This document shows, piece by piece, positions 18,778 through 32,073 of a stretch of DNA of 44,505 nucleotides. The stretch is from Corynebacterium sp. (GTDB taxonomy: Bacteria > Actinomycetota > Actinomycetes > Mycobacteriales > Mycobacteriaceae): assembly GCA_041830435.1 (NCBI GenBank), contig JBHAQQ010000095.1:1-44505 (forward strand). Reading direction: 5' to 3'. The position numbers and the translations under genes were made by a program. Positions within the stretch are counted from its first letter, which is position 1. Every line of letters begins with the position of its first letter. Under the pieces are notes generated by a model. It saw nothing but the letters and a program-made list of their open reading frames with translations, was not told where the DNA came from and did not search any database.

Positions 18778-18982
18778 GCGTAGTCAAAGGTCACTAGTTG
18801 ATACACGCCAGCGCTCCGCACCCTGCAACTGATCCAAGCACAGCGTAGGAAAGCAAAATGACCTGGTGCGCTTTGTATACCTTTGCCATACCTGCTGATT
18901 GTGGGATGTTTGCGCTGTTCGTGGGCTGTTTTCACCGGCGTTAGCACTTGTGCTATTAAGGCCTAATATGGTGGTATTTGGT

Positions 18983-19010
18983 GCCGCATGTCGTGGAATT
19001 GTCGTGGAAT
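18983..19010. repeat. Putative integrase arm-type site (tandem TGTCGTGGAAT) next to tRNA-Leu
   Basis: GCCGCATGTCGTGGAATTGTCGTGGAAT, 25/28 identical to 29183-29210. Confidence 0.65.
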
Positions 19011-28890: not shown

Positions 28891-29010
28891 GATGCATTCC
28901 ACTATAAGCGCAATGGGGTTTCACACGAAGATGGGGCAAATTGCTATTCCATACAGGCTTGGGGTACAGTGTTGCCCGTACGTTCGCTTACGGAAGTAAG
29001 TGGATGACGT

Positions 29011-29082
29011 TCTCCCATGGTGTAATTGGCAACACTCCGGTTTTTGGTACCGTCATTCTAGGTTCGAGTCCTGGTGGGAGAG
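29011..29082 (+). tRNA. tRNA-Gln(TTG)
   Basis: Acceptor TCTCCCA/TGGGAGA, anticodon loop TTTTGGT, T-loop GGTTCGAGTCC. Confidence 0.97.
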
Positions 29083-29118
29083 CTTTTTTATACCCTCTTG
29101 CGACCTGCGTTTTGGCTG
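29061..29118 (+). repeat. Left att-like direct repeat (tRNA-Gln 3' end plus 36 bp)
   Basis: 56/58 identical to 30461-30518; 29069-29118 is an exact 50-bp match. Confidence 0.95.
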
Positions 29119-29182
29119 GTTGTGGGGCGTTTTTCAAAAGTTAGCGCATGTGCTATTTCGGCGAATTTTAGCGAGTTTTAGC

Positions 29183-29217
29183 GCCGCGTGTCGTGGAAAT
29201 GTCGTGGGATTGGTGTG
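29183..29217. repeat. Putative integrase arm-type site, left end
   Basis: GCCGCGTGTCGTGGAAATGTCGTGGGATTGGTGTG; 29199-29217 recurs exactly at 30401-30419. Confidence 0.65.
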
Positions 29218-29634
29218 AAATTGTCGCAGGACTTTGGAATGCCGATCCAGCGAATCCCCATCTCACGATACTTATCACGCTCTGGCAACCTGTCCCGTCT
29301 CTCCACCTATTAAATGTCTGAATTGAAGACCGCATCAAGGTTCCCGCTCGCAAGTAAGTGGAAAGTTCAAGGACCTCGTCTCAGAGATGTCCTTTGCCTG
29401 CCACAAACCAGTTGAGACCCCAGCAGGAACCCACATGCTTTTGAGCCCCACAGGGGTCATTGCTTAATTGCCACAAATCCACCTCAATCTCCGGCGGCAC
29501 AACAATATTCGCCGCCGACGCCAGGATTGGTGCAATCAGTTCTTGTCATAGGTAAGCAAAAGACCCCTTCGCTTGCTCAAAGTCGGCAGCAAGAAAGGAG
29601 GTTGAGAAAGTTTCAAGGAATTTTCTTAATGCAG

Positions 29635-29665
29635 TTGGCTAGATTCAGCGTAAGCGCGCTATGCT
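29635..29665 (+). promoter_or_regulatory. Candidate promoter/operator of the small-gene module
   Basis: TTGGCT(29635-40)-19nt-TATGCT(29660-65) with a short inverted repeat AGCG-N6-CGCT (29647-29660) in the spacer. Confidence 0.4.
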
Positions 29666-29711
29666 TTAGGTGCACCAACCGGAACAAAAACCAAATAGAG
29701 GAAGTGGCGCT

Positions 29712-29813
29712 ATGGACTTAGCGGCGCTGATCATTAGCTCCATCAGTCTGGAGTTGCAGATCATGCAATACCGCCAGTCCAACCCTCCATACAGAGGGGA
29801 GCATCGCAAATAA
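29712..29813 (+). CDS. 33-aa hydrophobic peptide with basic tail (type I toxin-like); not in ORF track
   Basis: MDLAALIISSISLELQIMQYRQSNPPYRGEHRK; GAGGAAG RBS; stop directly followed by a GC hairpin. Confidence 0.6.
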   Translation: MDLAALIISSISLELQIMQYRQSNPPYRGEHRK

Positions 29814-29853
29814 CCCCGGGCGCTGGCTATCACCATTAGCCAGCCCCACGGGG
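29814..29853. other. GC-rich hairpin directly after the peptide stop (terminator, processing site or antisense-RNA stem)
   Basis: CCCCG..GCTGGCTA-tcaccat-TAGCCAGC..CGGGG; no U-tract; minus-strand TAGTGT -10-like hexamer at 29869-29864. Confidence 0.65.
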
Positions 29854-29885
29854 CTATATCCTCACACTACACGAAAGGACTCTCA

Positions 29886-30044
29886 ATGACCTGGAAGCAA
29901 GCAAGTGCTGCAAGTGGAATCATTGCCGCAGCCTGTTACGCATTCATCGCAGCAACTCCCTTCTGGCCACTCGTCATAGCCCTAGCGGCACTGTCCGGAT
30001 ACAACCTCGCCACAGCGACTGCAGAAAAGAATCGAAAGCAATGA
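29886..30044 (+). CDS. 52-aa two-TM membrane protein; not in ORF track
   Basis: GAAAGGA RBS; MTWKQASAASGIIAAACYAFIAATPFWPLVIALAALSGYNLATATAEKNRKQ; ATGA overlap with next gene. Confidence 0.75.
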   Translation: MTWKQASAASGIIAAACYAFIAATPFWPLVIALAALSGYNLATATAEKNRKQ

Positions 30045-30301
30045 CGATCCGTATTACAGACACCACGACTGGCCGTGAGCTTTGGACGATTGCCCAATGC
30101 GCCGCTCATTGCGGCGTCACCGCTTCGACGTGGCGCAGCTATAGCCGAACGGGCGGAAAGCTTTCGCCACCCGAAGCGACTCAACACCTCGACGGGCGCA
30201 CACCCCTATGGGACGCCGAGGAGGTTAAGGCCTGGCATGCAGCCCGCCCTGGCTCACCCGTGAAAAACGCACCCCGCGCCAAAGCCAAGTCCAAGCACTA
30301 G
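30041..30301 (+). CDS. Excisionase/AlpA-like winged HTH DNA-binding protein
   Basis: LWTIAQCAAHCGVTASTWRSY...PPEA...GRTPLWDAEEVKAW pattern; translationally coupled to upstream ORF. Confidence 0.8.
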   Translation: MTIRITDTTTGRELWTIAQCAAHCGVTASTWRSYSRTGGKLSPPEATQHLDGRTPLWDAEEVKAWHAARPGSPVKNAPRAKAKSKH

Positions 30302-30420
30302 CTGGGTCATAAGGACGCAGCTTTTACGTTGAATACGTAGTTGCGTTGCTTGATGCTGATTTGGATCAGATTGGGGAGGCGTTGAAATCGGCATTGTCGG
30401 ATGTCGTGGGATTGGTGTGG
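30302..30420 (+). pseudogene. Tyrosine integrase C-terminal remnant
   Basis: LGHKDAAFTLNT[ta-]VALLDADLDQIGEAL matches box II LGH...T...Y with a 1-bp loss in the catalytic Tyr codon (30338-30339). Confidence 0.8.
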
Positions 30421-30460
30421 TTTGGAGTGTTAATGCTGGCCATTTGGAGTGTTTAGGCTG

Positions 30461-30518
30461 GGTTCAACTCCTGGTGGGAGAGCTTTTTTATACCCTCTTG
30501 CGACCTGCGTTTTGGCTG
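30461..30518 (+). repeat. Right att-like direct repeat
   Basis: GGTTCAACTCCTGGTGGGAGAGCTTTTTTATACCCTCTTGCGACCTGCGTTTTGGCTG duplicates the tRNA-Gln 3' end and flank. Confidence 0.95.
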
Positions 30519-30595
30519 TTGGTGGCGAATTTTAGGGAAACCAGCAATCACCCCCAATTTCCCAAAATAGACAGCACTGTCTACCGTGGTGGGTT

Positions 30596-32073
30596 ATGAC
30601 TCAGTCACATTCCCCTCACACAACCCAACAGCCGCCCATCGTTGCCAATGGAGGCGTACGCCGTGCACTCGAAGTGCGCCACCTGGTCATGATCGCACTC
30701 GGCGGTGTCATTGGCTCCGGCTTGTTCATCAGCTCCGGCTACACCATCACCCAAGCTGGCCCACTCGGCGCGGTACTCGCGTACCTCATCGGCGCAGCGG
30801 TGGCCTGGATGGTCATGGCTTGCATGGGAGAACTCGCGGTGCAATACCCACACGCTGGCGGATTCCATATCTACGCCTACAAAGCGCCATCAGCCCCGCC
30901 GCTGGTTTTGCCACGGCCTGGCTCTACTGGCTGTGCTGGGTCGCCGCCCTCGGCAGTGAACTCACCGCCTCCGGACTCCTGCTCCAACGCTGGTTCCCAG
31001 ACATTCCCGTGTGGCTGTGGGCACTGATCCTCGCCACCGTCCTGTTCACTATCAATGCACTCACTGTTCGCGGCTTCGGCGAAACAGAATTCTGGTTCTC
31101 CTTGATCAAGGTGCTCGCCGTCGTGGCCCTCATCATCGTGGGCGCCGCCGCGATGTTCGGATTCAACACCGACGCCCCAGCGCCACTATTCAATAATTTT
31201 CAAACTCCTGATGGACTCTTCCCCACCGGTGGAGCCGGAGTACTCGTCACCATTCTGGCAGTATTTTATGCCTTTTCTGGTACTGAACTGATCGCCATCG
31301 CAGCTGGTGAGGTGAAAGACCCGCAACGCGCAATCCCGGCGGCACTGCGCACCACCCTCATCCGGCTGGTGATCTTCTTCGTTGGTGCGATCACCGTGAT
31401 CGCCGCCCTCATCCCTTGGGAAACCTTGCAAGACATTTCCGGTAGCGAATCGGTGGAGAATAGCCCTTTCGTGATCGTCTTTGATCAGGTCGGTATCCCT
31501 TATGCTGCCGATATCATGGCTGCCATCGTCATCGTGGCCTTGCTCTCTGCAGGCAACTCGGGCCTATATGCATGTTCCCGTTTGCTGTACTCCATGGCAA
31601 CGGTGGGTCAGCTGCCTGCCATCTTCGGCAGCACCTCGAAGCGAGGCGTGCCCCTGTTCGCGATCGGCATTTCTATCCTGGGCGGCCTCGCCGCGCTGCT
31701 GTCTTCCGTGATTTCCCCTGGCGCTGTGTATCTCGCGCTGGTCTCCATCGCCGGCTTCGCGGTGGTAGCTGTGTGGATCGTCATCGTGGTGGCCCAGATG
31801 CGCAACCGACGCCAATTCCTCGCCGCCGGAGGCAAATTGGAGGACTTGGTGTTCCGCACTCCGCTCTACCCGGTTCTCCCACTGCTGGCCCTCGCGGCAT
31901 GCGTCATTTCTCTTATCGCCGTGGCGTTTGACCCTTCTCAAGTCGCGGCCCTGTACTTCGGCATTCCTTTTGTGGGCCTGTGCTATTTGGTGCACTGGTG
32001 GAACACCCGCCGCAATCCTCAAGGCATCACTTCACCAGCAGCGTTCGCGCCTCACGGATCTGCTCAGGAGTAG
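30596..32073 (+). pseudogene. mmuP: S-methylmethionine/amino-acid permease (APC family), frameshifted near 30884-30888
   Basis: [17 protein letters not shown] in the frame starting 30596; [32 protein letters not shown] in the other frame; adjacent to mmuM. Confidence 0.85.

What the first reader, a model, noticed from the sequence alone, without database searches (positions are those of the whole stretch)
29635..30301. Unannotated peptide-hairpin-membrane protein-wHTH module: candidate type I toxin-antitoxin-like system with extra components
Seen: a candidate promoter with a short inverted repeat in its spacer, RBS plus a 33-aa ORF (29712-29813, hydrophobic N-half, tail RGEHRK), a 40-nt GC hairpin starting at the base after its stop, a minus-strand TAGTGT -10-like hexamer (29869-29864) pointing into the hairpin and the peptide gene, a strong-RBS 52-aa two-TM ORF (29886-30044), and an ATGA-coupled 86-aa HTH gene. 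Two of the three ORFs are below the ORF-track cutoff. All three frames are open while flanking element DNA is decayed. Established: Fst/Ldr/TxpA-type type I toxins are ~30-60-aa single-helix peptides with charged tails, often controlled by convergent antisense RNAs. Inference: a toxin-like peptide and antisense RNA, plus a membrane partner and an autoregulator, acting in element maintenance, exclusion or phage defence. I know of no named system with this arrangement. The Glu in the hydrophobic stretch could mean this copy is attenuated.
Basis: partly seen in the sequence, partly recalled or inferred. Interest (0 to 1): 0.82.

Follow-up and report, generated by a model that had tools for sequence, protein, structure and literature searches.

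The report
Actinophage peptide, antisense and partner cassette
A three-gene cassette left by a decayed prophage in a Corynebacterium genome is conserved across many actinobacterial phages and likely holds a small membrane-damaging peptide in check with a matched membrane partner, a predicted 50-base antisense RNA and a likely self-repressing DNA-binding protein; this copy's peptide looks weakened.

Summary
The module sits in a 1.4-kb prophage remnant between att-like repeats at tRNA-Gln of a Corynebacterium. The same order (promoter with palindrome, 23-50 aa one-helix peptide, hairpin, 41-59 aa two-helix protein, MerR/Xis-like wHTH) recurs in Corynebacterium, Gordonia, Rhodococcus, Dietzia and Mycobacterium (pro)phages, including Sbash 34-33-32 and Butters, where the peptide is hidden inside annotated gene 34. 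The hairpin covaries (12 of 14 pairs), and an antisense TAnnnT follows it in 34 of 43 picked modules (7.4 by chance), predicting a ~50-nt hairpin RNA. Across 30 modules the peptide tracks the two-helix protein (r 0.77) and the operator tracks the HTH (r 0.43); cross-links are weak (0.16-0.19). So a matched peptide/partner pair is swapped inside an autoregulatory shell. Best reading: a toxin-antitoxin-like cassette with protein and RNA control (0.45); rival: a two-subunit exclusion complex (0.3). Toxicity, binding and the RNA are untested; published Sbash delta-34 lysogens are stable with unchanged defence. No named family matched. This copy has polar or acidic changes at three peptide positions and is probably attenuated.

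The parts
29011..29083 (+). tRNA-Gln(TTG), integration site of the element
   Evidence: ARAGORN; Rfam
29058..29133 (+). left att-like direct repeat (tRNA 3' end plus 50 nt)
   Evidence: family D1
29229..29342 (-). broken remnant of a corynephage att-proximal gene (like the LGCMVI_0002 region), two in-frame stops
   Evidence: tblastx 53% over 38 aa, E 1e-7
29635..29665 (+). predicted sigma-A promoter TTGGCT-19-TATGCT (homologues mostly TTGACA-18-TATAAT)
   Evidence: not listed by the simple scan
29646..29661 (.). predicted operator for the HTH, AGCG-n6-CGCT variant of the family palindrome TA(A/G)CG-n8-CG(T/C)TA, overlapping the -10
   Evidence: 12.7 of 18 positions palindromic vs 4.9 shuffled in 19 promoters, 8 of 18 here; operator-HTH r 0.43
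29712..29813 (+). ORF1, 33-aa one-helix peptide with charged tail; predicted toxin; probably attenuated allele
   Evidence: 58% identical to intact orthologues in L211-L215; family alignment
29814..29853 (.). conserved intergenic hairpin starting at the ORF1 stop; A-rich 5' flank gives a U tail on the minus strand
29803..29857 (-). predicted ~55-nt antisense RNA, essentially the hairpin plus U tail (not observed)
   Evidence: inference
29864..29869 (-). antisense -10 hexamer TAGTGT
   Evidence: TAnnnT in 34 of 43 picked modules vs 7.4 +/- 2.4 shuffled
29886..30044 (+). ORF2, 52-aa two-helix membrane protein; matched partner of ORF1, predicted immunity protein
   Evidence: 63% identical to L211 orthologue; model of that orthologue is a helical hairpin, pLDDT 74.5; ORF1-ORF2 r 0.77
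30041..30301 (+). 86-aa winged HTH of MerR/Xis/BldC fold (phrog_597); predicted autorepressor
30458..30533 (+). right att-like direct repeat
   Evidence: family D1

Best explanation
This is the surviving cassette of a collapsed tRNA-Gln prophage, and it is likely a toxin-antitoxin-like unit in which the ORF1 peptide would damage the membrane, the matched two-helix ORF2 protein would neutralise it, a predicted ~50-nt antisense hairpin RNA would tune the ORF1 message, and the HTH likely represses the shared promoter. Shown: gene order, hairpin covariation, the antisense -10 motif, pairing of ORF1 with ORF2 families and of operator with HTH, and (published, Sbash) lysogenic transcription of the three genes as one operon. 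Inferred: the RNA is made, pairs with the mRNA hairpin (loop to loop) and lets RNase III cut between ORF1 and ORF2, so that the peptide message is lost and the partner and repressor are kept; when host transcription stops (phage attack, loss of the element) the short RNA and the balance decay and the peptide depolarises the cell, giving abortive infection or addiction. The peptide/partner/hairpin unit diversifies and is swapped between phages, as specificity units do. This copy carries polar or acidic residues at three positions that are hydrophobic or basic in its closest orthologues and is probably attenuated.
For: Same order in Finkle 39-38-37, LGCM-VI 8-7-6, REQ2 33-32-31, Ebert 33-32-31, Herod 36-35-34, Whack 35-34-33, Sbash 34-33-32, and with an unannotated ORF1 in Butters, Vendetta and Catfish. 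Automatic count: of 105 HTH hits in L013-L111, 95 had a hairpin of -15 kcal/mol or better, 77 an ORF2, 48 both ORFs (redundant loci included). Hairpin: 12 of 14 consensus pairs have compensatory changes in 22 sequences; z <= -3 in 42 of 43 vs 1 of 43 control windows; Butters vs Sbash ORF1 129 of 132 bases identical but spacer only 67 matches over 82/86 nt with the hairpin and a TAnnnT both kept. Antisense TAnnnT 34 of 43 vs 7.4 (max 17 in 5000 shuffles), 16 different hexamers, sense orientation 3 of 43. U tail favours the minus strand: mean 5.5 A in 12 nt 5' of the stem vs 1.7 T in 10 nt 3'. In 30 dereplicated modules r(ORF1,ORF2) 0.77, r(operator,HTH) 0.43, r(ORF2,HTH) 0.17, r(ORF1,HTH) 0.16, r(operator,ORF1) 0.19; ORF1's nearest neighbour is in ORF2's top three in 27 of 30, against 7 of 30 for ORF2 vs HTH. 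ORF1 decays first: in one phage family 6 of 34 alleles keep an intact ORF1 and 34 of 34 a full-length ORF2; stops, frameshifts or deletions in ORF1 with ORF2 intact in several other modules. Sbash 32-34 is a lysogenically expressed operon (PMC6426596). ORF1 shape matches type I toxins (established knowledge; weak Hol_Tox hit for 2 of 27, E 0.023).
Against: No toxicity, binding or RNA data were obtained. Sbash delta-34 grows lytically, forms stable lysogens and defends as wild type against the phages tested; a Butters delta-30-36 lysogen was made and still blocks Island3. The predicted RNA is almost wholly paired and shows no cognate pairing with the ORF1 ribosome-binding region (p 0.64, n 22). 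The A-rich flank is partly the stop codon and Lys codons, and is weak in high-GC members. Some ORF1 tails are acidic (Finkle, REQ2, Dietzia). The 43 modules were picked by me for having a hairpin, and kin are not independent; an A-n-TA control pattern also scores 22 of 43 because the commonest hexamer contains it. The 6-of-34 count was anchored on ORF2 sequence, the alleles are related, and three in-frame altered alleles were scored as not intact. ORF1-ORF2 co-inheritance could partly be linkage. One locus has ORF1, hairpin and ORF2 all broken (L107).
Confidence: 0.45

Rival explanations
1. ORF1 and ORF2 are two subunits of one small membrane complex that blocks entry of, or aborts, competing phages (superinfection exclusion); the hairpin and antisense promoter set subunit ratio and the HTH sets the level. 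Neither protein is toxic alone.
For: Matched-pair inheritance; lysogenic expression and location in defence regions beside Sbash/Butters 30-31; Sbash 32 and 33 remain candidates for the unexplained Giles defence; Butters delta-30 keeps marginal defence.
Against: Delta-34 keeps Giles defence, and no plasmid tested gave it; ORF1 decays while ORF2 is kept, which a two-subunit effector does not predict; no PADLOC match for either small protein.
Confidence: 0.3
2. A classical type I pair (ORF1 plus convergent antisense RNA, as TxpA/RatA or SprA1/SprA1AS); ORF2 and the HTH are unrelated neighbours read through the hairpin.
For: Toxin-like ORF1 and an antisense promoter 3' of it, the Gram-positive layout described in T1TAdb.
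Against: ORF2 families track ORF1 families (r 0.77) and the operator upstream of ORF1 tracks the HTH; the three genes are one operon in Sbash.
Confidence: 0.1
3. The HTH is a recombination directionality factor (excisionase) and the small membrane proteins and RNA gate its expression, controlling prophage excision.
For: Best folds are RdfS (Z 7.3, rmsd 2.5, 57 aligned), BldC (6.8), GIsul2 Xis (6.6), Pukovnik Xis (6.2); phrog_66 excisionase E 2e-8; annotated 'excise' in some Gordonia phages; often beside an integrase.
Against: phrog_597 scores far better (E 8e-20); the HTH covaries with its own promoter palindrome; it occurs far from integrases, in tandem copies, in cluster B mycobacteriophages (lytic, recalled) and as a stand-alone chromosomal gene; Butters delta-30-36 could be built as a phage and lysogen.
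Confidence: 0.08
4. ORF1 is a membrane-sensing leader peptide whose translation opens or closes the hairpin and so controls ORF2 and the HTH (attenuator).
For: ORF1's stop abuts the hairpin and the ORF1-ORF2 gap is 62-87 nt in 28 of 29 modules; weak cognate pairing of the C-rich tract with the ORF1 RBS (p 0.008, about 1 kcal/mol).
Against: No conserved arrest motif (no invariant column); the hairpin lacks a U tail on the sense strand; it does not explain the antisense -10.
Confidence: 0.05

Closest known systems
Gram-positive type I TA systems with a 3' convergent antisense RNA (TxpA/RatA, BsrG/SR4, SprA1/SprA1AS, Fst/RNAII; layout from T1TAdb PMC8594479, passages)
   Same: Short one-helix peptide with a charged tail; antisense promoter 3' of the peptide gene; shared hairpin; prophage location.
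   Different: No Pfam or Rfam match to these families; the message continues into a matched membrane protein and an HTH; predicted RNA is hairpin only; host phylum is Actinomycetota, outside the phyla listed for type I systems in PMC12390103 (passages).
Sbash genes 34-33-32 and Butters genes 33-32 plus a hidden ORF1 (PMC6426596; PMC7542560; bioRxiv 2023.01.03.522681)
   Same: Same cassette: order, sizes, hairpin, antisense -10, phrog_597 HTH. Lysogenically expressed.
   Different: Those papers call the genes unknown and, in the passages read, describe no hairpin, antisense promoter or system; Butters gene 34 is annotated in another frame over the peptide.
Type II TA operons with autorepression and small toxin/immunity membrane pairs (e.g. 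RexAB-like Sbash 30/31, Butters 30/31 as two-gene prophage defence)
   Same: One autoregulated operon; a matched pair of partner proteins; expression in the lysogen.
   Different: Both partners here are under 60 aa and membrane-bound, the repressor is a separate third gene, and a conserved antisense promoter lies between the partners.
MerR/Xis/BldC winged-HTH proteins (RdfS, BldC, Pukovnik Xis; phrog_597)
   Same: Fold and binding site in a long (18-19 nt) promoter spacer, as for MerR regulators (recalled).
   Different: No effector domain; inverted-repeat operator rather than BldC/Xis direct repeats (recalled); travels with variable cargo (Schmidt, Catfish, Rem711).

Membership tests
Type I toxin-antitoxin system (class) | Small (<60 aa) hydrophobic peptide gene | tested here: met
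   23-50 aa one-helix ORF1 in 29 of 43 picked modules by script, more by eye
Type I toxin-antitoxin system (class) | Peptide is toxic when expressed | not testable with these tools
   No assay; no screened phage with the module found. Indirect: ORF1 decays first
Type I toxin-antitoxin system (class) | An antisense RNA is transcribed | tested here: inconclusive
   Antisense TAnnnT in 34 of 43 vs 7.4 and minus-strand U tail; the RNA itself was not observed
Type I toxin-antitoxin system (class) | RNA pairs with toxin mRNA and silences it | tested here: inconclusive
   Full complementarity to the mRNA hairpin is by construction; no cognate pairing to the ORF1 RBS region (p 0.64)
Fst / Ldr / TxpA / Hol-Tox / TisB toxin families | Sequence match to the family profile at its cut-off | tested here: not met
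   27 ORF1 members vs Pfam: only Hol_Tox 2 of 27 (best E 0.023) and TisB 1 of 27 (E 0.12); window ORF1 none
Known antitoxin RNA families (Rfam) | Covariance-model match at gathering score | tested here: not met
   28900-30700: only tRNA passes; hairpin's best is F6 at 20 bits vs 46
Known anti-phage systems (PADLOC-DB 2.0) | Component profiles present in system order | tested here: not met
   Only the HTH hits mad1 (E 6.5e-6); no hit for the small proteins among 8 tested
Toxin with cognate protein immunity (type II-like) | Partner co-inherited with the toxin | tested here: met
   r 0.77; 27 of 30 nearest-neighbour concordance
Toxin with cognate protein immunity (type II-like) | Direct binding and neutralisation | not tested
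   Complex prediction could not be run
MerR/Xis/BldC winged HTH (phrog_597) | Profile match and fold | tested here: met
   phrog_597 E 7.5e-20; model pLDDT 80.8; RdfS Z 7.3, BldC Z 6.8; Pfam MerR below cut-off, 18.6 vs 28.2 bits
Excisionase (RDF) | Needed for excision; binds att arms | not testable with these tools
   Context argues against a general RDF role

The most novel reading that the evidence does not exclude
The first antisense-controlled toxin system of Actinomycetota, and a new hybrid design: a membrane toxin held by both a cognate two-helix immunity protein and a ~50-nt hairpin-only antisense RNA encoded between them, the whole specificity unit being swapped among temperate phages inside a shared operator/repressor shell, with a host-encoded chromosomal paralogue of the repressor.
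Probability: 0.3. Interest if true: 0.85.

Novelty: new variant of a known kind. Interest (0 to 1): 0.7.

Why it matters
A 2025 paper lists type I toxin-antitoxin systems only from Proteobacteria, Firmicutes and Tenericutes, plus its own cyanobacterial case (PMC12390103, passages); a confirmed case here would add a phylum and a layout with both RNA and protein control. The cassette is common (HTH family in 107 of 201 Corynebacterium genomes searched, many of them the chromosomal paralogue; 650 phage records hit by the Butters HTH, many with other cargo) and is expressed in well-studied M. smegmatis lysogens whose genes 32-36 have no assigned role, so it can be tested at once with existing phages and a published deletion. 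It also corrects annotations (Butters gene 34; missed peptides in Vendetta and Catfish).

Tried and rejected
Rfam, Pfam, NCBIfam, PHROGs and PADLOC gave no family for either small protein or the hairpin; ESM Atlas hits were under 0.9 and unnamed; Foldseek of the ORF2 model against viral structures gave nothing under E 1. No RNA holder listed for the window, so expression was not examined. Contigs of four runs showed no joint across the att repeats; contigs show presence, not absence. Anti-SD reading of the C-rich tract: only about 1 kcal/mol cognate advantage, while the T, A, T positions are fixed and the middle bases vary, so I prefer a promoter. ORF1-ORF2 fusion or read-through: phase and frame openness are random. 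Trans pairing of the predicted RNA to the ORF1 RBS: none. C. diphtheriae NCTC 13129 DIP1820A (228 bp, start sites 297, 116 and 36 nt upstream; PMC5784534 supplements 3, 4 part 1 of 2, 6 and 9) has a suggestive size, but no locus I held matched its layout (the latter output cut), so I do not use it. Order-wide search found mostly stand-alone HTHs without the peptides (34 of 151 genomes with a hit; 30 blocks inspected, none with the module). Cluster B mycobacteriophages, Daob, StAugustine, Schmidt, Rem711 and P1312 have the HTH with other cargo. The Xavia screen paper (passages) does not cover the module. ORF1-ORF2 complex prediction: no verdict, never queued. Dedrick et al. 2017 is not held and is cited only through the Butters papers. 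Earlier-findings look-ups returned nothing. Literature searches that found no description of the cassette; most subscription papers and bioRxiv supplements are not searchable.

Full report
Setting. The window is from a Corynebacterium (HTH homologues named; flanking mfd, amino-acid permease, glmU and prs-like ORFs, names recalled from their sequences). The module lies in a 1.4-kb island between two 76-nt direct repeats, 29058-29133 and 30458-30533, that include the 3' end of tRNA-Gln-TTG. Relatives keep the tRNA but not the island, except G014, which has an ORF1-truncated module beside the same tRNA at the end of a larger element. The left flank holds a stop-interrupted homologue of a corynephage att-proximal gene. 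So this is a collapsed prophage of which only the cassette is intact. Contigs from four oral-metagenome runs of one study show no letter difference inside the module where they cover it.

Observation. In this copy alone the promoters are not above chance.

Conservation. The HTH has 46 close hits and 1191 representatives at E <= 0.001; it is phrog_597 with a MerR/Xis/BldC winged-helix fold. Upstream of it the order peptide, hairpin, two-helix protein recurs in Finkle, LGCM-VI, REQ2, Ebert, Herod, Whack and Sbash as annotated genes, and in Butters, Vendetta and Catfish with the peptide unannotated. In Butters the 43-aa peptide lies out of frame inside annotated gene 34. Of 105 HTH hits in L013-L111, a script found a hairpin in 95, ORF2 in 77 and both ORFs in 48 (redundant loci included, some intact ORF1s missed). 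More distant HTHs carry other cargo or stand alone, so the full cassette is a subset of the family.

Hairpin and antisense promoter. In 22 aligned sequences 12 of 14 consensus pairs show compensatory changes; 42 of 43 hairpins have z <= -3 against 1 of 43 control windows. For 43 non-redundant modules that I picked for having a hairpin, an antisense TAnnnT lies 3-16 nt beyond the stem in 34 (shuffles 7.4, maximum 17; nAnnnT 39 vs 21.5), with 16 different hexamers; the sense orientation scores 3; spacing controls score 22, 4, 13 and 4. The stem has an A-rich 5' flank and no T-rich 3' flank, so as a terminator it faces the minus strand. Together these predict a 39-64 nt RNA that is the hairpin plus a tail, ending near the ORF1 stop (22 modules; 55 nt here). 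It shows no cognate pairing to the ORF1 ribosome-binding region (p 0.64). Between Butters and Sbash the spacer has diverged much more than ORF1 while hairpin and -10 are kept. No RNA was observed.

Two covarying pairs. The sense promoter is mostly TTGACA-18-TATAAT with a palindrome over the spacer and -10 (12.7 of 18 vs 4.9, 19 promoters). In 30 dereplicated modules (two spurious and one partial row dropped, three added) ORF1 tracks ORF2 (r 0.77) and the operator tracks the HTH (r 0.43), while the cross terms are 0.16-0.19; 11 pairs have alike HTHs with unrelated cargo. The ORF2-HTH junction overlaps physically yet is the one that is shuffled. Inference: the peptide and the two-helix protein are a functional pair swapped inside an autoregulatory shell. 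Kin are not independent in these tests.

Decay pattern. In one phage family 6 of 34 alleles keep an intact ORF1 while all 34 keep ORF2 (anchored on ORF2, related alleles, three in-frame altered alleles counted as not intact). Other modules have ORF1 stops, frameshifts or deletions with ORF2 intact; L107 has all parts broken. The window's ORF1 is 58% identical to orthologues in L211-L215 but has Ser, Glu and Glu at positions 10, 14 and 30 where they have Leu, Ala and Arg, and a Gly-to-Glu change in the helix occurs in decayed alleles of the other family. This fits a costly peptide and an attenuated copy here.

Literature. Gentile 2019 (PMC6426596; passages and section 3 part 2): Sbash 32-34 is a lysogenically expressed operon of unknown function; delta-34 forms stable lysogens with unchanged defence; 32 and 33 were not deleted and remain candidates for Giles defence; the word antisense does not occur. 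Mageeney 2020 (PMC7542560; passages): Butters 32-36 are expressed, roles unknown. bioRxiv 2023.01.03.522681 (passages): delta-30-36 lysogen made, still blocks Island3. PMC12390103, PMC5367252 and PMC8594479 (passages) give the known range and layouts of type I systems and do not mention Actinobacteria. My searches found no description of the cassette; figures, most subscription papers and bioRxiv supplements were not visible.

Verdict. A real, widespread, undescribed actinophage cassette. It works most likely as a toxin-antitoxin-like unit with protein and RNA control (0.45), or as a two-subunit exclusion complex (0.3). It is not a member of any named toxin, RNA or defence family tested. The class resemblance makes it a new variant of a known kind; function is unproven and this copy is probably weakened. 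Interest 0.7.

Noticed in passing
G000:C50:2802-3029 (minus); L223-L232: A stand-alone chromosomal paralogue of the HTH, apparently leaderless (a -10-like hexamer 6-7 nt before the ATG), lies beside rpiB and/or tRNA-Gly in the own genome and in 10 of 10 weak-hit genomes sampled; the 9 copies put in a tree form one side of a branch, 100/98. A possible host regulator related to the phage repressor; G006 has a broken cassette at the same site (L107).
   Followed up: partly
L075:3499-3630 (minus), Butters KC576783: Annotated gene 34 (147 aa) overlaps, out of frame, the real 43-aa peptide that is 129 of 132 bases identical to Sbash gene 34; Sbash gene 33 is annotated from an upstream GTG through the hairpin rather than from the SD-led ATG.
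   Followed up: yes
L017, L098, L100, L101, L103-L105, L150, L207: Tandem cassettes 560-900 nt apart with different peptide/partner families, as expected for collected specificity units.
   Followed up: partly
L069 (Catfish), L070 (Schmidt), L072 (Rem711), L074 (P1312): The promoter-plus-HTH shell carries other cargo: Catfish has an extra gene between ORF2 and the HTH, Schmidt has only a related extra gene; a second operator-like copy lies at a divergent promoter.
   Followed up: partly
P0047, P0048, P0052, P0055, P0056, P0112, P0117: Proteins of 240-620 aa made of 4-7 tandem copies of this wHTH domain.
   Followed up: no
window:29199-29217 and 30401-30419: An identical 19-nt sequence occurs inside both ends of the island, with related copies at 18940-19010 near tRNA-Leu and on contig C102; possible integrase arm sites.
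   Followed up: no
window:30586-32073: The amino-acid permease gene right of the island is frameshifted near 30890-31027 (start in one frame, body in another); assembly error or pseudogene.
   Followed up: no
L025 / L109: A contig titled Staphylococcus chromogenes is the same sequence as a locus of a genome in the window's genus (G019), with ORF1 cut by an insertion sequence; the title is probably a mislabel.
   Followed up: no
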